In this document: one piece after another, positions 18,372 through 24,853 of the stretch | Layout of the letters: the number at the start of each line of letters is the position of its first letter | Numbering within the stretch: position 1 is the first letter of the stretch | Assembly: GCA_964401865.1 (NCBI GenBank) | Contig: CAYNZZ010000004.1 | Location: 1-32,000, forward strand | Reading direction: 5' to 3' | DNA length: 32,000 nt | Origin: an uncultured Erysipelotrichaceae bacterium | Lineage (GTDB): Bacteria > Bacillota_I > Bacilli_A > Erysipelotrichales > Erysipelotrichaceae | Made by a program: the position numbers and the translations under genes | The notes under the pieces: generated by a model | Seen by the model: only the letters and a program-made list of their open reading frames with translations | The model's database searches: none | What the model was told of the DNA's origin: nothing

Positions 18372-18519
18372 TAAAACTCAAATGGCTTTGGGTCGATATT
18401 TTTTAATCACTTCGTAAACTAGAAAACACCGCATAACTTTGCAAAAATAGACAATGTAAAATTTATTCTTTTCATTATTAAATAGTATAATTAATCATAT
18501 AGAATTGAGGTTTTAAAAT

Positions 18520-18825: not shown

Positions 18826-20177
18826 ATATATATTCCTATAGAAGATTTTATCATACATATCCTGAATGTAGATAAGGATGATATCGAAAGTTCTAAAGTC
18901 AGTATCAGTGGCAATGAAGTTATATATGAGATAAAACTTAAAAGAAAAGATATGTATTGTGATTACTGTCATGAAAAGATGATTGGTCATGGTGTAAAGA
19001 TTAGAAAAATATCACACCCTAATATCAGAGGATATAATGGAACCATATATTATAGTGCCAACAGATATATATATGCAAAAACTGTCATAAGACTAGATTT
19101 GAGAATAATCCTTTTACATTTAACGGATTCAATAATTCATATTCAAAGATAAGTGAGGTTATGAAATATCTGAAGAATCTCAATTATACCCTTGATATGA
19201 TATCCAAAGAACTCAATATATCCAAAACACATATTAATAACTATATCGATTCATATATAGTAGTACCTAAACTAAAACTGCCTGAATGGCTTGGAATAGA
19301 TGAAGTTCATTCTGATTCATTAACTTATAAAAATGCTTCTTATTTATGTGTTATTGTTGATGGTGAAAAGAGAACACTGTTTGATATTCTTGGTTCAAGA
19401 TCAAAAGATACATTAAGTAATTATTTCTCTAAGATAGATAAGAATGAAAGATTAAATGTCAGATATGTAACTATTGATATGTGGGAACCATATAAGGATA
19501 TAGCTTTAAAATACTTCCCTAACTGTATTATAGCCATTGATCCATTTCACTATATCAAACACTTATGTGATGACTTTGATAGATTAAGAATCAACCTTAT
19601 GCATCAGTGTGAATATGGAAGTCCATCATATTATCTATTAAAGACATGGAACTTTCTTTTTATAAAGGATGATATCAATCTTGATAATAAAAGGCAATAT
19701 AATCATGTATTCAAAACAGAACTAAACAGAAGAGATATATTCAATATCATGATAGATAACTTTCCTTTATTATATGAAGCATATTTACTTAAGGAAGAGT
19801 TTAGAGATATGGTTAAAACCTGTGATTATAATGAAGCTAAATCCAGATTTGATGAAATACATAAAAAGTTTAATGAATCAGGTATCAGAGAATATGATGA
19901 ATTTATTGGAATACTTGATACATGGAAAAATGAGATACTTAATTCTTTTATTAATCCTTATGATAAACATAAGCTGTCAAATGCCCTTACTGAAAACATT
20001 AATGGCAAGATAGGACAGTACATCATTATTTCCAAAGGACTTATCAATTTTAAAAGATTCAGGAAAAGAGTACTATACGCACTTAATTCATCTGCTTATT
20101 TCTCTATTACTGATAAACTGAAAAGTGTTAAGTATGATAGACTTAAAAGAGGTCCTTATAATAAAGTAAAGACATAA
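18826..20177 (+). pseudogene. ISL3-family transposase, frameshifted in an (AT)5 run and lacking an ATG start
   Basis: The N-terminal part runs in frame 1 from about 18826 (...IEDFIIHILNVDKDD...KRKDMYCDYCHEKMIGHG...) with zinc-finger half CDYC. At (AT)5 19065-19074 the frame breaks. Removing one AT unit gives RYICKNCHKTRFENNPFTFNGFNNSYSKISEVMKYL..., restoring the second CxxC and joining to the 338-aa DDE body (19161-20177). GGGAGG is followed only by ATA/ATT codons. Confidence 0.8.
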
Positions 20178-20271
20178 TTACCATTAGATATTCGACCATA
20201 TAAAAAGACATGGATATTACTCATATTTGAGCTATATTCATGCCTTATTTAGCACATTTATCGTATAGTCT

Positions 20272-21253: not shown

Positions 21254-21724
21254 TTATTGTTGTTCCTTACTAGCTTTATATAAAGAAACTAAAGCTGAAA
21301 TTTTAGTATTTTGGACAATAGTAGCTAATGCTTCCAATAACGCAGCGATAAAGTTAAAAGTATAATATTCAACAAATGAGAATCCTATCCATACGCAAAT
21401 GTTGAGCATAAAGGCTCCAAAGTTGAATTTCATACGATGATATCTTTCGTATAAACTTTCATATAAAACTGGTTGCATACTGTCTTTAAATGAGAATATG
21501 ATTCCAAATACCAGTAAGGCAATAAGTAACCCATAACCAAATTTCTCGATTCCCTTTGCCCACTTCATTAAATCTTTTGCGTGTTTATCTTCTTTAACGC
21601 ATTCTTGTAAAGAACTTGGGAAATTGTTTTCTTGTTTTTCAATTACGACTTCATTCACAATTTCTTTGCTTTCGTTTTCATCGATCTTCTCTTCATTTGA
21701 GTTTTGTTTGTTTTCATCTATCAT
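21254..21724 (-). CDS. Hypothetical membrane protein (acidic N-terminal tail, about 3-4 hydrophobic segments)
   Basis: 156-aa ORF with a strong RBS (AAAGGAGAAAAAG). Hydrophobic stretches FGYGLLIALLVFGIIFSF and FGAFMLNICVWIGFSFVEYYTFNFIAALLEALA. No recognisable family. Confidence 0.6.
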   Translation of the reverse strand: MIDENKQNSNEEKIDENESKEIVNEVVIEKQENNFPSSLQECVKEDKHAKDLMKWAKGIEKFGYGLLIALLVFGIIFSFKDSMQPVLYESLYERYHRMKFNFGAFMLNICVWIGFSFVEYYTFNFIAALLEALATIVQNTKISALVSLYKASKEQQ

Positions 21725-21771
21725 TTTTTTCTTTTTCTCCTTTCTTTTATCATCATTCTATATAAATACAC

Positions 21772-21794
21772 ATATTTTTGCATGATATTTTGCA
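21772..21794. promoter_or_regulatory. Tandem direct repeat in the divergent promoter region (candidate operator for the adjacent RHH protein)
   Basis: ATATTTTTGCA (21772-21782), then TG, then ATATTTTGCA (21785-21794). It lies between the minus-strand membrane-protein gene and the plus-strand RHH ORF. Confidence 0.4.
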
Positions 21795-21864
21795 CTTTTT
21801 TATAAGTGTATATAACAAAATGCCTTTCTTTTAAGATGAAAGTGTAAAGGAAGGAGAAATAATA

Positions 21865-22041
21865 ATGCCTTTTAAAGTAGAGAAAGAAGAATATGTCAAT
21901 AAGACATTTAGATTAGAAAAGAAGTTAGTTGATGAGTTGGAAAAGATCTGCAACAAGAAAAACATTTCACTTAACAAACTTGTAGTAAAATGTATAAAAT
22001 ATGCATTAAATGATATGGAAGATAAAGAGGACAACGAATAG
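21865..22041 (+). CDS. Small ribbon-helix-helix (Arc/CopG/MetJ-like) DNA-binding protein, 58 aa; absent from the supplied ORF track
   Basis: GGAAGGAG RBS lies 8 nt before ATG 21865. Sequence: MPFKVEKEEYVNKTFRLEKKLVDELEKICNKKNISLNKLVVKCIKYALNDMEDKEDNE*. It shows a beta-strand (KTFRL) then helix-helix pattern typical of RHH repressors and antitoxins. Track ORF 21831..22034 (-) is its antisense shadow. Confidence 0.65.
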   Translation: MPFKVEKEEYVNKTFRLEKKLVDELEKICNKKNISLNKLVVKCIKYALNDMEDKEDNE

Positions 22042-22048
22042 TCTTCTT

Positions 22049-22372
22049 TTATTTTTTTATATTCATTCGGTAATTATCGTATCGAAATTGTCTTACAAGA
22101 GATTCGATTATTGCTTGTTGATTGCTTTCTAAGTCTGTAATATCAACCAAATTTCCATTATCACTTTGATCGTTTGACGTTAAAAAATAAACTTCATGAA
22201 TGTTAAAAATATTACAAATATCCTTTAACACGGTAAATGAAGGATTCCTTATTCCCTTTTCATATGCCGAAATTACAGACTTACTTAAACCAAGCTCTTT
22301 TGCTAAATCTGTTTGCGTCATTTCAGCCTTTTCTCTTAGCTTTTTAATTTTTTTACCAAATTCAGTATTCAT
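22049..22372 (-). CDS. XRE-family helix-turn-helix transcriptional regulator
   Basis: N-terminal HTH_3 pattern KIKKLREKAEMTQTDLAKELGLSKSVISAYEKGIRNPS; 107 aa. Confidence 0.85.
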   Translation of the reverse strand: MNTEFGKKIKKLREKAEMTQTDLAKELGLSKSVISAYEKGIRNPSFTVLKDICNIFNIHEVYFLTSNDQSDNGNLVDITDLESNQQAIIESLVRQFRYDNYRMNIKK

Positions 22373-22420
22373 ATACAGTCCTAATTTCCACTTACAATAT
22401 ACTATACTCTTTTAAAAATA

Positions 22421-22437
22421 GTCAACATATAGTTGAT
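22421..22437. promoter_or_regulatory. Palindrome upstream of the XRE gene (candidate operator)
   Basis: GTCAAC-ATATA-GTTGAT, with 5/6 complementary arms, lies about 50 bp upstream of the XRE start codon. Confidence 0.3.
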
Positions 22438-23880
22438 AAGATGTAGACTCATGATATACTTTAAGTGGAAAGGAAGTCCACTCAATGTTGAAAGTTTGTA
22501 AACAAGATAAAACTAAAGTGATGCAATTGATTCAAGAATTAAAACTTGATGGTATTGCTATGAGTAGTTCTAACTTAATTGATGACATTATCCTTTCTAT
22601 GTCTAAACAAGGAATTCTAGATTGTTTAAAAGAAGGATTTCTAGATAAAAGAAACCACAACACTACAGTTCCATTTGACTTAATCCTTGTCTTAGCAATT
22701 GCTGCTAAGATGAAAATCCATACAAGCTTATCTGACATTCCTTATGCCATTACAGATCATAGAACTTTTGCTGAACTTGGATATAATATTTTAAATTCCA
22801 ATCCCGAAGAAGGATGGTTTAAAGAAGGTACTATCAGACATTTATTGACCAAATACTCTTCTTTAGATTTGTTTAATTATTATATTAATGTAGTTCAGAA
22901 TTATGTTTTTAAAAAGATAGATTTTAAACCTGATATTCATATATTAGATTGCACAAAAATAGCAGTTAATAAAGACAATGAAAATTACGAGAATGCCACG
23001 TGGGCAATTGATCGTAAAGGTGATAAGATGTTTGGTTACAAGTTGGCTTCTTTAAGAGGTTTATATGGTGATAGCGGCATAATTGAAGATGTAAGATTTG
23101 GAACAGCTTCGACCCACGATTTAGAATTAAGTAGAAATATTCTTTACAATAGCCCTTGTCTAAATGAAGGTGATTGCTTATTAATGGACAGAGGTTTCTT
23201 TTCAAGAGAAGTAATAGATTATTTAAAAAATGAACGCAAAGTTGATGTTTATATTCCCTTGAAAAAGAATACAGCAGAATATGACTTAGCAATTGAACTA
23301 GCAGAGGAAATTGATGATTGGAAATCGCATCCAACACGTAAAAATCAAATGATATGTCATGTGCCGAAAGTTGATTCTAGTTTCCAACTATTTCCACCAC
23401 CAAAGGCTAATGTTGAATTTAATACTTGTGCAATATGGACAGAAGAAACTCAATCTTATGTAGTGTTCGCTACAACAGATATGACAAAAACAGCAGATGA
23501 AATTGTTAGAATGTATGAACTCAGGTGGGAAATTGAAGAAGATTTTAGACAACTGAAAGATTTCTGGAAGCTAGAAGATTTTAAAAGTACAAAATATAAT
23601 GTAATTAGCTTTCATTTAGTATGTGTATTGTTTGGCTATTTATTCTATCAACTATATATAAATAGTGATGATGGTGAAAAGTATATTGGTAAGTCTTTAC
23701 CAGTTATGTTAAAGAATTATAGAAATGAATTTCTAGCATACTTAGCACTATATGTCGAAGACTATTTCTGTGTTATGAGTCTTAAGGAATTTATGGAATT
23801 TAGAGATAACTGTAATAGTGAGATTAGAAAATTTCTTTTAGGATTCTTGGGATAAAAATGCTTATGTTTTATATTATCAA
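22433..23880 (+). mobile_element. IS4-family insertion sequence (boundaries tentative)
   Basis: Contains an intact DDE transposase. The only candidate ends I could find are weak: TTGATAAGATGTAGAC (22433-22448) versus the reverse complement of 23865-23880 (TTGATAATATAAAACA), 10/16 identical. No target duplication was seen. Confidence 0.45.
22485..23855 (+). CDS. IS4-family DDE transposase
   Basis: 456 aa. Catalytic D in IHILDCTKI and D in LLMDRGF. The exact IS4 signature Y-x2-R-x3-E-x6-K is present in YELRWEIEEDFRQLK. Confidence 0.88.
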   Translation: MLKVCKQDKTKVMQLIQELKLDGIAMSSSNLIDDIILSMSKQGILDCLKEGFLDKRNHNTTVPFDLILVLAIAAKMKIHTSLSDIPYAITDHRTFAELGYNILNSNPEEGWFKEGTIRHLLTKYSSLDLFNYYINVVQNYVFKKIDFKPDIHILDCTKIAVNKDNENYENATWAIDRKGDKMFGYKLASLRGLYGDSGIIEDVRFGTASTHDLELSRNILYNSPCLNEGDCLLMDRGFFSREVIDYLKNERKVDVYIPLKKNTAEYDLAIELAEEIDDWKSHPTRKNQMICHVPKVDSSFQLFPPPKANVEFNTCAIWTEETQSYVVFATTDMTKTADEIVRMYELRWEIEEDFRQLKDFWKLEDFKSTKYNVISFHLVCVLFGYLFYQLYINSDDGEKYIGKSLPVMLKNYRNEFLAYLALYVEDYFCVMSLKEFMEFRDNCNSEIRKFLLGFLG

Positions 23881-23907
23881 TATTTTTGTTTTGTCAAAAC
23901 ATTTTTA

Positions 23908-23935
23908 TTGAATAATCTACAATTTATGTTATAAT
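23908..23935 (+). promoter_or_regulatory. Strong sigma-A-type promoter with extended -10
   Basis: TTGAAT (23908-23913), 16 nt spacer, then TGtTATAAT (23927-23935). The predicted TSS is around 23939-23942. Confidence 0.6.
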
Positions 23936-23938
23936 AAT

Positions 23939-24208
23939 GGTGTCGAAAGACATACTAATATTTTGTTGTATTTTAGCAAGATATTTTTGAGGTAGAAAGA
24001 TGGTTATTCGCACGAAGATTTATTCTTCGTGTCAAGTATAGGAAGTGATTCCGATGAGATGTGGGAACTATCGCCCCACCAAAAATGTTTTATCTATATT
24101 AATTTAAAAAAGAATATACTTAGCTAGCCAGTATGCTAATAAAATATAATTGGTTTGTCAATAAGCTCGCTAGCCCTTATGCGACTAATAAATGAAGGGT
24201 GCGAATAT
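23939..24208 (+). ncRNA. Candidate non-coding leader / antitoxin RNA of the downstream ToxN-like gene (class unknown)
   Basis: About 270 nt between promoter and terminator with no convincing ORF. Local hairpins: tgtc-GAAA-gaca (23941-23952), a perfect 8-bp cacgaaga/tcttcgtg (24011-24031), and gtggg/cccac (24061-24079). The 3' part holds imperfect 46-nt repeats. Confidence 0.4.
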
Positions 24209-24210
24209 AA
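24112..24210 (+). repeat. About 2.2 imperfect tandem repeats of roughly 46 nt (candidate type III antitoxin repeats)
   Basis: Unit 1 (from 24112): GAATATACTTAGCTAGCCAGTATGC--TAATAAAATATAATTGGTTTGTC. Unit 2 (from about 24160): AATA-AGCTCGCTAGCCCTTATGCGACTAATAAATGAAGGGTGC. Unit 3 is partial (24203): GAATATAAAGG. Shared blocks are AATA..CT.GCTAGCC..TATGC..TAATAAA. GCTAGCC recurs at 24123 and 24169 (period 46). Identity is only moderate. Confidence 0.4.
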
Positions 24211-24240
24211 AGGTAATCTTAATGATTACCTTTATTTTTT
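24209..24240 (+). terminator. Intrinsic terminator directly upstream of the ToxN-like ORF's Shine-Dalgarno
   Basis: 10-bp stem aaaggtaatc (24209-24218) / gattaccttt (24224-24233) with loop ttaat, then aTTTTTT. AGGAGGT (24241-24247) and ATG 24251 follow immediately. Confidence 0.75.
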
Positions 24241-24250
24241 AGGAGGTAAA

Positions 24251-24709
24251 ATGGAAATTGTAGAGTTAGGTCTTTATGTTTTAGAAGATGATTATTTAGA
24301 TAAATATTATATTAAGGATTTCCCACAAAACAAAAAAGATGGCGAAAGACCTTTTTTCGCTTGTTTCAAAGACAATAAAGATTCTAACATATATTGGTGC
24401 ATTCCTATTAGCTCACAAGTAGATAAATATATTCCTATCATAGATAAATATCCTAATGCTGGAGAGATAATCAATTTATATGGGAAAAAATATAGTGTTT
24501 TGTTAGCCCAAAATATAATACCAGTACATAAGAAATTTATTAAACGTATATTTACTGTGGATGGAATTCACTATAAAATATTGGATAAAAATACGAAAAA
24601 AAGAATTTTAAAAAAATGTCGTTACATGAGATCGTTATTCATGAATAATAAACATTTTTATTCAGAACAAATTATTAGTTTATATAACAAAATGCAAAGT
24701 ATTGAGTGA
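24251..24709 (+). CDS. ToxN/AbiQ-like protein (candidate type III toxin endoribonuclease / abortive infection protein)
   Basis: 152 aa from ATG 24251, which has a perfect SD. The N-terminal pattern LYVLEDDYLDKYY...ERPFFACFKDNKDSNIYWCIPISSQ parallels the ToxN/AbiQ pattern (FY..S.KY.EYL......[basic]..F.GIV.....Y.APLTSPK) as I recall it. Mid region LLAQNIIPVHKKFIKRI and basic C-terminal helices are similar in layout. The track start TTG 24155 would read through the terminator and is rejected. Confidence 0.5.
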   Translation: MEIVELGLYVLEDDYLDKYYIKDFPQNKKDGERPFFACFKDNKDSNIYWCIPISSQVDKYIPIIDKYPNAGEIINLYGKKYSVLLAQNIIPVHKKFIKRIFTVDGIHYKILDKNTKKRILKKCRYMRSLFMNNKHFYSEQIISLYNKMQSIE

Positions 24710-24741
24710 AACTACTCAAAATTAAATATGAGTAGTTTTTT
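24709..24741 (+). terminator. Rho-independent terminator after the ToxN-like gene
   Basis: Perfect 10-bp stem aaactactca (24709-24718) / tgagtagttt (24729-24738), followed by TTT. Confidence 0.75.
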
Positions 24742-24853
24742 AGTCAATTTGCAATATTTATATCTACTTTACGAATTGAAAATATATTTTTTAATTATAT
24801 ATTGAAAAAATATGTTTATGATTATACTTTATTAAAGTTATAAGAGGAAGACA

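What the first reader, a model, noticed from the sequence alone, without database searches (positions are those of the whole stretch)
23908..24741. Candidate type III toxin-antitoxin / abortive-infection module with a divergent, barely repetitive RNA partner
Seen in sequence:
- A near-consensus promoter with extended -10 lies at 23908-23935.
- About 270 nt follow with no credible ORF but several perfect local hairpins.
- The last ~100 nt form about 2.2 imperfect repeats of ~46 nt (GCTAGCC at 24123 and 24169; GAATATA at 24112 and 24203).
- A 10-bp-stem intrinsic terminator (24209-24240) directly abuts a perfect Shine-Dalgarno and ATG 24251.
- A 152-aa ORF follows, with its own terminator at 24709-24741.

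Established knowledge: type III TA / Abi loci (ToxIN, AbiQ/antiQ, CptIN and TenpIN families) have exactly this layout. A promoter drives short tandem RNA repeats, a terminator sets the RNA:toxin ratio, and then comes a ~150-190 aa endoribonuclease toxin.

Inference: the ORF's N-terminal pattern (LYVLEDDYLDKYY ... RPFFACF...IYWCIPISSQ) looks ToxN/AbiQ-like to me. The repeats are far more degenerate than in described systems, and the long structured 5' leader is not part of the canonical picture. So this is one of three things:
- a divergent or undescribed type III-like family,
- a system whose antitoxin is a non-repetitive structured RNA,
- a decaying locus.

It sits in an IS-rich accessory patch, which is typical for defence genes.
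Basis: partly seen in the sequence, partly recalled or inferred. Interest (0 to 1): 0.72.

Follow-up and report, generated by a model that had tools for sequence, protein, structure and literature searches.

The report
CptIN toxin-antitoxin with skipping-rope leader
This is a protein-RNA (type III) toxin-antitoxin module of the known CptIN family carried on a transposon; its odd 5' leader is a copy of the orphan "skipping-rope" RNA, which elsewhere sits beside small RNase toxin genes.

Summary
The 152-aa ORF (24251-24709) is a CptN endoribonuclease: PDB 4RMO E 2e-17, NCBIfam CptIN E 1e-23, and a predicted fold with TM 0.82 to CptN. The "barely repetitive" RNA is a canonical CptI antitoxin. It has two units of 47 and 44 nt (24114-24204), each an H-type pseudoknot. 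Seven base pairs show compensatory changes across 7 loci. The two units are only about 64% alike, but each is conserved between loci, so the RNA is not decaying.

Two things are new.
- The leader (23982-24087) is a skipping-rope RNA (Rfam RF02924, 42.9 bits against a threshold of 36.7). It has that family's usual promoter, a weakened built-in terminator, and no cptI promoter after it. It is therefore probably co-transcribed with cptI-cptN. Close relatives lack it.
- The module lies at the right end of an IS4-like transposon. Relatives have 17-bp inverted repeats and 9-bp target duplications; the window copy keeps only the right repeat.

In about 170 skipping-rope loci, 50-60% follow a PBECR3 RNase gene. 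Five independent layouts place the RNA beside type III toxins.

The toxin-antitoxin itself is ordinary. The link to skipping-rope RNA is the interesting lead.

The parts
23908..23935 (+). Sigma-70-type promoter TTGAAT-16-TATAAT with extended -10 (TG). By position it is the skipping-rope RNA's own promoter and probably the only promoter for the whole module.
   Evidence: 10/12, TG. The 46 nt from the -10 to the RNA start fits the roughly 40 nt seen in other skipping-rope genes. No + strand promoter-like site lies between 23935 and 24412.
23982..24087 (+). Skipping-rope RNA (Rfam RF02924). It is a divergent copy with a weakened P2 helix, an enlarged variable hairpin and a weak closing-helix terminator.
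   Evidence: Rfam 42.9 bits against a gathering score of 36.7, E 4e-7, the only Rfam hit in the window. My own model R1 gives 40.6 bits, E 3.5e-7. The minimum-energy fold reproduces P1 and the 3' hairpin, z = -3.5.
24114..24160 (+). cptI antitoxin unit 1 (47 nt). It is an H-type pseudoknot: P1 24120-24124 with 24135-24139, P2 24128-24132 with 24149-24153. Presumed CptN cleavage sites flank it at GA^AU 24113/24114 and CA^AU 24160/24161.
   Evidence: Alignment A5 and pair counts. The cleavage sites are inferred from CptI of E. rectale, which ends in G44-A45 with a 2',3'-cyclic phosphate (PMC4627078).
24161..24204 (+). cptI antitoxin unit 2 (44 nt). It is an H-type pseudoknot: P1 24167-24170 with 24181-24184, P2 24174-24178 with 24195-24199. 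It ends at the presumed cleavage site GA^AU 24204/24205.
   Evidence: P2 reads CCCUU/AAGGG, CCCUC/GAGGG, CCCUG/CAGGG and CCCGC/GCGGG in different loci.
24207..24240 (+). Intrinsic terminator between antitoxin RNA and toxin gene. It would set the RNA:toxin ratio.
   Evidence: 12-pair stem, T run. A hairpin plus T run sits at the same place in all 7 aligned loci, with different sequences.
24241..24709 (+). Shine-Dalgarno AGGAGG (24241-24246) and cptN, a 152-aa CptN-family endoribonuclease toxin (ATG 24251, stop 24707-24709).
24709..24741 (+). Terminator of cptN.
   Evidence: -14.8 kcal/mol, z = -4.8, then TTTTTT. Conserved in position in relatives.
24765..24780 (.). Right terminal inverted repeat of the IS4-like transposon that carries the module (TACTTTACGAATTGAA).
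   Evidence: Exact match. It is the same terminus that bounds the 4.48-kb element in L044-L049, which has 9-bp target duplications.
21865..23855 (.). The rest of the shared transposon block: a 58-aa ORF (+, 21865-22041), an Xre-type HTH gene (-, 22049-22372) and a DDE_Tnp_1 transposase (+, 22485-23855).
   Evidence: Pfam. Homology to L034/L044 runs from 21770 to 23815, with protein identities of 77%, 42% and 64%.

Best explanation
The locus is an intact CptIN-family type III toxin-antitoxin module, built into the right end of an IS4-like transposon and driven by the promoter of a skipping-rope small-RNA gene.

Proposed mechanism:
1. Transcription starts about 23942 from the 23908-23935 promoter (inferred).
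2. The skipping-rope RNA (23982-24087) is made first. Its usual built-in terminator, an extended closing helix plus a U run, is reduced here to AAGA/UUUU. The polymerase therefore reads on (inferred).
3. The two cptI units fold into H-type pseudoknots (shown by covariation).
4. CptN cuts after the A of (G/C)A^AUA at 24113/24114, 24160/24161 and 24204/24205. This frees a 47-nt and a 44-nt RNA and detaches the skipping-rope fragment (inferred from CptIN of E. rectale).
5. The 24207-24240 terminator lets only a fraction of transcripts reach cptN, so the RNA is in excess (inferred from ToxIN).
6. CptN and processed CptI form an inactive complex, 2:2 in E. rectale. Here it may hold one of each unit, because the two units are conserved as distinct sequences (inferred).
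7. If transcription stops, through phage shut-off or loss of the element, the RNA decays. Free CptN then cleaves cellular or phage RNA and arrests growth (known for the type III class, not tested here).

The net effect would be to stabilise the transposon, to abort phage infection, or both.
For: Toxin:
- 4RMO CptN E 2e-17.
- NCBIfam CptIN E 1.4e-23.
- AlphaFold model pLDDT 94. Its best PDB match is CptN, TM 0.82, ahead of MazF at 0.5, AbiQ at 0.67 and ToxN at 0.62.
- R33, S54 and S55 align with R30, S51 and S52 of CptN. R33 and S54 are nearly invariant in the 60-sequence alignment, and all three are invariant among the 8 closest sequences.

RNA antitoxin:
- Period 46 nt, two units and a 152-aa toxin, against the published CptIN ranges of 40-48 nt, 1.9-3.4 copies and a mean of 149 aa.
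- Pseudoknot test: 93.6% of cells paired, 7 pairs with double changes, 0 of 500 shuffles as good, shifted controls 34-47% paired.
- Short L1 and a 9-nt A-rich L2, as in CptI of E. rectale.
- A terminator and a Shine-Dalgarno sequence are conserved in position.

Leader:
- Searches identify the skipping-rope RNA.
- Relatives have a TTGACA-17-TATAAT promoter about 30 nt before unit 1 and no skipping-rope RNA.
- The window has no such promoter.

Transposon.
Against: - Nothing was tested experimentally: toxicity, antitoxicity, RNA processing and co-transcription are all inferred.
- The NCBIfam score (83.4) is just under the curated cut-off (90). Relatives P0005 and P0002 pass at 92 and 97.
- Two base-specifying residues of CptN from E. 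rectale differ (D81 to G78, Y104 to F101).
- The arginine after the two serines (R53) is Q56 here.
- PADLOC has no match.
- The skipping-rope copy is the weakest one seen (43 bits against 60-93 elsewhere), so it may be a relic.
- A weak promoter below the scan threshold upstream of unit 1 cannot be excluded.
- The window transposon lacks a recognisable left end.
Confidence: 0.85

Rival explanations
1. The skipping-rope RNA is a working part of the system. It would be a second RNA partner (antitoxin, decoy, stabiliser or sensor) for small endoribonuclease toxins in general, fused here to cptI to give a two-RNA operon.
For: - PBECR3 RNase genes are followed by skipping-rope RNA on the same strand in 28 of 62 viral loci and 53 of 88 metagenome loci. 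The gene's stop codon lies 10-50 nt before the RNA.
- No conserved protein partner lies upstream of PBECR3.
- The RNA has its own consensus promoter embedded in the end of the PBECR3 gene.
- It abuts type III toxins in five independent layouts: the window; L290; L005, in the cptN 3' UTR; L216, in the 3' UTR of a TenpN-like gene; and the L076 group, where it is divergent.
- In 1.36 Mb of skipping-rope loci, all 8 type III toxin hits lie within 1.5 kb of the RNA, and 6 lie within 300 nt.
Against: - The closest relatives of this cptIN (toxins 44-65% identical) work without it.
- Only about 4 of roughly 70 CptN lineages have it nearby.
- The orientation varies, including divergent, which argues against a cis role.
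- In sister phages the cptIN cassette next to the RNA is swapped for an unrelated cassette. That fits a shared insertion hot spot.
- Many skipping-rope copies sit beside integrases, metA or tRNA genes.
- The window copy is degenerate.
Confidence: 0.2
2. The juxtaposition is accidental. A promoter-plus-skipping-rope gene fragment recombined in front of cptI and replaced its native promoter. The RNA is a passenger or relic with no role beyond supplying a promoter.
For: - Homology with the sister element breaks at 23815 and resumes at 24115. A block of about 300 nt therefore replaces a block of about 170 nt containing the native promoter.
- The window copy scores lowest, has a mismatched P2 helix, and deviates in a loop that is otherwise invariant in my sample.
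- Only one lineage has this arrangement.
Against: - The copy still passes the Rfam threshold and keeps P1, the 3' hairpin and the conserved GAGG and GAGAUG motifs.
- Repeated independent adjacency to type III toxins is hard to ascribe to chance alone.
Confidence: 0.55
3. The module is a decaying or inactive remnant.
For: - The two repeat units are only 64% identical and Tandem Repeats Finder is silent.
- The transposon has lost its left end.
- The toxin is just under the NCBIfam cut-off.
Against: - The ORF is full length and keeps the family's invariant residues.
- Each RNA unit is conserved across loci with compensatory changes.
- The 47/44-nt asymmetry is shared by all 7 loci.
- Promoter, terminators and Shine-Dalgarno sequence are all intact.
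- Unit divergence forms a continuum across 73 CptN loci, from 36/36 identical down to chance level. The window scores 24/36.
Confidence: 0.07

Closest known systems
CptIN of Eubacterium rectale (PDB 4RMO; Rao et al. 2015, PMC4627078) and the cptIN family of Blower et al. 2012 (PMC3401426)
   Same: - Homologous toxin: E 2e-17, fold TM 0.82.
- Two pseudoknot RNA units of about 45 nt upstream, then a terminator, then the toxin.
- H-type pseudoknot with a short L1 and an A-rich L2 of about 9 nt.
- Presumed cleavage after (G/C)A.
   Different: - Only 24% identity in the structural alignment.
- Some base-specifying residues differ (G78, F101, Q56).
- The two units are diverged paralogues (64% identical) with conserved unequal lengths.
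- There is a skipping-rope RNA in the leader instead of a proximal promoter.
- The module is carried on a transposon. The 2012 survey found cptIN only on chromosomes.
ToxIN (Pectobacterium atrosepticum) and AbiQ/antiQ
   Same: The operon logic and the toxin superfold are the same (TM 0.62 to ToxN, 0.67 to AbiQ).
   Different: - A different family: Pfam ToxN_toxin is below threshold.
- ToxI has 5.5 identical 36-nt repeats and forms a 3:3 complex.
- Abortive infection is demonstrated for ToxIN and AbiQ but not for CptIN.
Skipping-rope RNA motif (Rfam RF02924; Weinberg et al. 2017, PMC5737381)
   Same: - The leader matches the family model above its gathering score.
- It has the family's own type of promoter.
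- The paper notes 3' terminators and a 'compelling association with proteins encoded nearby', with no function known and no self-cleavage.
   Different: - Here it lacks an effective terminator and runs straight into a type III antitoxin array.
- The usual neighbour in my sample, a PBECR3 RNase gene, is absent.
- I could not read the paper's supplement, so I do not know which protein it named.
Toxin-antitoxin pairs carried inside transposons (Tn3-family elements with type II modules; from my own knowledge, not checked here)
   Same: A toxin-antitoxin module sits inside the transposon boundaries and next to the transposition genes.
   Different: Here the element is IS4-like (DDE_Tnp_1, 17-bp inverted repeats, 9-bp duplications) and the module is type III (RNA antitoxin).

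Membership tests
CptIN type III toxin-antitoxin | Toxin homologous in sequence to CptN | tested here: met
   4RMO_A E 2e-17 over residues 5-138. A profile search finds 727 relatives.
CptIN type III toxin-antitoxin | Passes the curated NCBIfam NF047359 cut-off (90 bits) | tested here: not met
   83.4 bits, E 1.4e-23. The nearest relatives P0005 and P0002 score 92.4 and 97.4. The window protein is a borderline member of a divergent subclade.
CptIN type III toxin-antitoxin | CptN fold (twisted beta-sheet, Kid/MazF-like core with helices) | tested here: met
   AlphaFold pLDDT 94.1. The top PDB hit is 4RMO, TM 0.82/0.81.
CptIN type III toxin-antitoxin | Upstream tandem RNA repeats of 40-48 nt in 1.9-3.4 copies | tested here: met
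   Units of 47 and 44 nt with a 46-nt period. Family ranges are from PMC3401426 Table 2.
CptIN type III toxin-antitoxin | Each repeat folds as an H-type pseudoknot | tested here: met
   20 pairs, 93.6% of cells paired, 7 pairs with compensatory changes, 0 of 500 shuffles as good, shifted controls 34-47% paired.
CptIN type III toxin-antitoxin | Intrinsic terminator between repeats and toxin gene | tested here: met
   24207-24235 plus a T run. Present at the same position in all 7 aligned loci.
CptIN type III toxin-antitoxin | Conserved RNase active site (Ser-Ser-Arg triad, adenine-specifying residues) | tested here: inconclusive
   S54/S55 match S51/S52, R33 matches R30 and S82 matches S85. R53 is Q56, D81 is G78 and Y104 is F101 (residue roles from PMC4627078).
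CptIN type III toxin-antitoxin | Toxin is toxic, RNA neutralises it, and the toxin processes the RNA | not testable with these tools
   Needs kill/rescue assays and RNA end mapping.
ToxIN / AbiQ family (Pfam PF13958) | Matches ToxN_toxin above the gathering score | tested here: not met
   18.1 bits against 25. Fold TM is only 0.62-0.67.
Abortive-infection system | Protects a population from phage by killing infected cells | not testable with these tools
   No PADLOC match. The CptIN loci tested in E. coli gave no phage resistance (PMC3401426).
Skipping-rope RNA (RF02924) | Scores above Rfam's gathering threshold with the consensus architecture | tested here: met
   42.9 bits against 36.7, full-length match to model positions 1-80. 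R1 gives 40.6 bits. The P2 helix has non-canonical pairs.
Skipping-rope RNA (RF02924) | Rho-independent terminator at the 3' end | tested here: not met
   No terminator-like site between 24087 and 24207. The P1 extension is only AAGA/UUUU, against 6-8 bp including G-C pairs in L057, L050, L052 and L005.
IS4-family transposon with passenger genes | DDE_Tnp_1 transposase, terminal inverted repeats at both ends, target-site duplication | tested here: inconclusive
   Transposase E 1e-21. The right repeat is exact. No left repeat or duplication is found in the window. All three features are met in the sister element of L044-L049.

The most novel reading that the evidence does not exclude
Skipping-rope RNA is the RNA partner of small endoribonuclease toxins. 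PBECR3 plus skipping-rope RNA would then be an undescribed protein-RNA toxin-antitoxin (or toxin-regulator) cassette. The same RNA would be recruited to CptN and TenpN-like type III operons. The window shows it fused to cptI so that one transcript, cut by CptN, yields both RNAs. This would give an eight-year-old orphan RNA class a function and would define a non-repetitive RNA antitoxin type.
Probability: 0.2. Interest if true: 0.8.

Novelty: new variant of a known kind. Interest (0 to 1): 0.52.

Why it matters
As a toxin-antitoxin module this adds little, because CptIN is a described and structurally solved family. Three points are worth more.
- It links the orphan skipping-rope RNA to RNase toxins. 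That RNA has a complex conserved structure and no known function. In my sample it most often follows a PBECR3 nuclease gene, and it abuts type III toxins in five independent layouts. This turns "what does this RNA do?" into simple kill/rescue experiments.
- It shows a type III module travelling as cargo of an IS4-like transposon that lands in bacterial and phage-like genomes. This is a route for spreading such modules, and they may act as addiction modules for the element.
- It shows that CptI arrays can consist of two anciently diverged, separately conserved units. This suggests asymmetric toxin-RNA complexes, and it explains why repeat finders miss such loci.

Tried and rejected
- Tandem Repeats Finder on 23800-24300 found nothing. 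The repeat is too diverged and has an indel.
- PADLOC: no family.
- Pfam ToxN_toxin: below threshold.
- Supplement of Weinberg 2017, which names the protein associated with skipping-rope RNA: not held.
- Skipping-rope RNA in the closest cptIN relatives (L034-L043, L001, L002): none at the gathering score.
- Left inverted repeat of the transposon in the window: only chance-level matches with 3-5 mismatches, for example at 18405.
- The 156-aa ORF 21254-21724 is unrelated to the 476-aa passenger gene of the sister element and has no Pfam match.
- blastn of the leader against phage genomes, and tblastn of the toxin against phages: no match.
- Plasmids hold only distant, unnamed relatives.
- The leader has no close relative among about 180 skipping-rope loci.
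- The broad CptN alignment A3 was too diverse for the search for related loci, so I replaced it with A7.
- A remnant of a PBECR3 gene upstream of the window's skipping-rope RNA: none seen by reading the sequence; the transposase gene ends at 23855.
- Source names for the toxin clusters: none.
- I did not determine the organism. The window is 32.6% G+C, and an hrcA-grpE-dnaK operon lies downstream.
Full report
OBSERVATION.
- The promoter TTGAAT-16-TATAAT with a TG extension lies at 23908-23935. It scores 10/12 and is the best + strand site in the region. Promoter-like sites as such are not enriched in this AT-rich DNA.
- No credible ORF lies between it and 24250.
- A direct repeat, 24123-24154 and 24169-24200, has 46-nt spacing and 72% identity. 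It is too weak for Tandem Repeats Finder.
- A terminator lies at 24207-24235.
- AGGAGG and the ATG at 24251 follow.
- The 152-aa ORF has its own hairpin plus T run at 24709-24741.

THE TOXIN.
- The ORF matches NCBIfam 'type III toxin-antitoxin system CptIN family toxin' at E 1.4e-23. Its 83.4 bits are just under the curated cut-off of 90.
- It matches the CptN chain of PDB 4RMO at E 2e-17.
- Pfam ToxN_toxin is sub-threshold and PADLOC is silent.
- An AlphaFold model built on 60 relatives has pLDDT 94. Its best solved match is CptN (TM 0.82). MazF follows at about 0.5, AbiQ at 0.67 and ToxN at 0.62.
- S54/S55 and R33 correspond to S51/S52 and R30 of CptN. Three other residues differ: Q56, G78 and F101.
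- The exhaustive profile search finds 727 relatives but only 5 below E 1e-30. This is therefore a small, divergent subclade of a large family. Its members P0005 and P0002 pass the NCBIfam cut-off.
- Public gene calls start the protein 24 codons too early, inside the antitoxin RNA.

THE ANTITOXIN RNA.
- I aligned the upstream regions of 7 loci whose toxins are 44-65% identical to the window's. The roughly 90 nt before the terminator is the best conserved part.
- It comprises two units of 47 and 44 nt, bounded by GA^AUAUA, CA^AUAAG and GA^AUAUA.
- Each unit can form an H-type pseudoknot. P1 is UAGC/GCUA or UCGC/GCGA. P2 is CCAGU/AUUGG or CCCUU/AAGGG. L1 is 2 nt and L2 is a 9-nt A-rich loop.
- This is the topology described for CptI of E. 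rectale, whose processed RNA ends in G44-A45 with a 2',3'-cyclic phosphate.
- On the alignment, 93.6% of cells are paired and 7 of 20 pairs show compensatory double changes. No shuffle out of 500 does as well, and shifted controls pair at 34-47%.
- The units are 59-66% alike within each locus. Orthologous units are 63-85% alike between loci, and the 47-49/44-45 nt asymmetry is universal. The two units are therefore old paralogues kept distinct, not decay products.
- Across 73 distinct CptN upstream regions, unit similarity runs from perfect (36/36) to chance level, with periods of 46-47 nt. The window scores 24/36 and sits in the lower third.
- All parameters fall within the published CptIN ranges.

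THE LEADER.
- 23982-24087 is a skipping-rope RNA (RF02924) at 42.9 bits against 36.7, E 4e-7. It is the only Rfam hit in the 32-kb window.
- A model I built from 28 other copies also finds it, at 40.6 bits.
- Weinberg et al. 2017 describe this motif as having features suggesting a sophisticated biochemical function, a 3' terminator, a 'compelling association' with nearby proteins, no self-cleavage and no known function. The supplement naming the protein is not held.
- Relatives of this cptIN have a TTGACA-17-TATAAT promoter about 30 nt before unit 1 and no skipping-rope RNA. Homology with the sister element breaks at 23815 and resumes at 24115.
- Other skipping-rope genes have their own consensus promoter about 40 nt upstream. 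Many also have an extended closing helix plus a U run that serves as terminator.
- In the window the promoter spacing fits (46 nt). The extension is only AAGA/UUUU, no terminator is predicted before 24207, and no promoter is predicted before unit 1.
- Hence a promoter-plus-skipping-rope block has replaced the native cptI promoter, and the RNA is probably co-transcribed with cptI-cptN. This is an inference.

WHAT SKIPPING-ROPE RNA KEEPS COMPANY WITH.
- A core pattern found 62 viral loci and at least 120 metagenome loci. All 10 that I checked are Rfam-positive at 60-80 bits.
- In 28 of 62 viral loci, and in 53 of 88 metagenome loci with enough flank, the RNA directly follows a gene of about 131 aa on the same strand. 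That gene encodes a PBECR3 nuclease (PF18812, E 5e-26).
- No conserved protein partner lies upstream of PBECR3.
- I found no paper that links PBECR3 with this RNA.
- Type III toxins abut the RNA in five independent layouts:
  - the window;
  - L290: the RNA, then 55 nt, then cptIN with its own promoter;
  - L005: the RNA starts 18 nt after the cptN stop;
  - L216: promoter, two 57-nt repeats, terminator, a TenpN-like toxin, then the RNA and a terminator;
  - the L076 phage group, where the RNA and cptIN are divergent.
- In 1.36 Mb of skipping-rope loci, all 8 CptN or TenpN-like hits are within 1.5 kb of the RNA, and 6 are within 300 nt.

Several observations argue against a dedicated role with CptN.
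- Only about 4 of roughly 70 CptN lineages have the RNA nearby.
- The orientation varies.
- In sister phages the cptIN cassette beside the RNA is replaced by one encoding a 28-aa hydrophobic peptide.
- Other copies lie next to integrases, metA or tRNA genes.
A shared insertion hot spot in mobile elements is a live alternative.

THE TRANSPOSON.
- Loci carrying P0005 (59% identical to the window toxin) share a 4.48-kb unit. It comprises a 476-aa gene, a 55-aa ORF, an HTH gene, a DDE_Tnp_1 transposase, cptI and cptN.
- The unit is bounded by perfect 17-bp inverted repeats (CTTCAATTCGTAAAGTA) and 9-bp target duplications.
- It is inserted in different bacterial and phage-like contexts.
- The window has the homologous block from 21770 to 24780. 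Protein identities are 77% (small ORF), 42% (HTH), 64% (transposase) and 59% (CptN). The right repeat is exact at 24765-24780.
- No left repeat is found. An ISL3 element and an unrelated 156-aa ORF lie to the left.
- P0002's locus carries the same cptIN subfamily without the transposon.

VERDICT.
- This is an intact, ordinary-acting CptIN module (confidence about 0.85).
- It has an unusual skipping-rope leader and sits on a transposon.
- The RNA's role here is more likely incidental promoter capture (about 0.55) than functional (about 0.2). Even so, the wider association of this orphan RNA with RNase toxins is a concrete, testable lead.

Noticed in passing
L044:6056-10539 (also L045-L049); window 21770-24780: An IS4-like transposon of 4.48 kb with 17-bp inverted repeats (CTTCAATTCGTAAAGTA) and 9-bp target duplications. 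It carries cptIN, an HTH gene, a 55-aa ORF and a 476-aa gene with no Pfam match. It is inserted in bacterial chromosomes and in phage-like contigs that encode an intein-bearing NrdD and an RNA ligase/kinase.
   Followed up: yes
L050-L233 (e.g. L057:4709-5271): PBECR3 nuclease gene plus skipping-rope RNA forms a two-part cassette, found in 28 of 62 viral and 53 of 88 metagenome loci and always on the same strand. The RNA's -35 box TTGACA is encoded in the last codons of the PBECR3 gene. No conserved protein partner is present. It looks like an undescribed protein-RNA toxin pair.
   Followed up: partly
L216:940-1790: A complete type III-like operon: promoter, two 57-nt repeats, terminator and a 152-aa TenpN-like toxin (38.6 bits, below the cut-off). 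A skipping-rope RNA and terminator follow in its 3' UTR.
   Followed up: partly
L055:6445-6810 versus L076:6946-7703: In sister phage contigs the 758-nt cptIN cassette beside the skipping-rope RNA is replaced by a 366-nt cassette. That cassette encodes a 28-aa hydrophobic peptide (MVTYSDLIQIGILIVGICSLVYQICKKK) resembling a type I toxin.
   Followed up: no
L075:3826-3973: A skipping-rope RNA overlaps the start of a tRNA gene by 5 nt on the same strand.
   Followed up: no
window 24155-24250 (P0001): Public gene calls give the toxin 176 aa by starting upstream, inside the antitoxin RNA and terminator. The start supported by the homologue alignment and the Shine-Dalgarno sequence is ATG 24251.
   Followed up: yes
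window 19161-20177: An ISL3-family transposase gene (338 aa). Public short-read contigs of this strain break at 20179, so it is probably a multi-copy repeat. It may have removed the left end of the cptIN transposon.
   Followed up: partly
window 21254-21724 (-): A 156-aa ORF with predicted hydrophobic stretches and no Pfam match. It occupies the position of the 476-aa passenger gene of the sister transposon but is unrelated to it.
   Followed up: partly
L290:884-1147: A consensus promoter (TTGACA-17-TATAAT) lies about 235 nt upstream of the skipping-rope RNA, with no convincing ORF in between. The content of this stretch is unknown.
   Followed up: no
L234-L301: 68 CptN-encoding loci in viral contigs, plus distant unnamed relatives on 11 plasmids. 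The 2012 survey reported cptIN on chromosomes only.
   Followed up: partly
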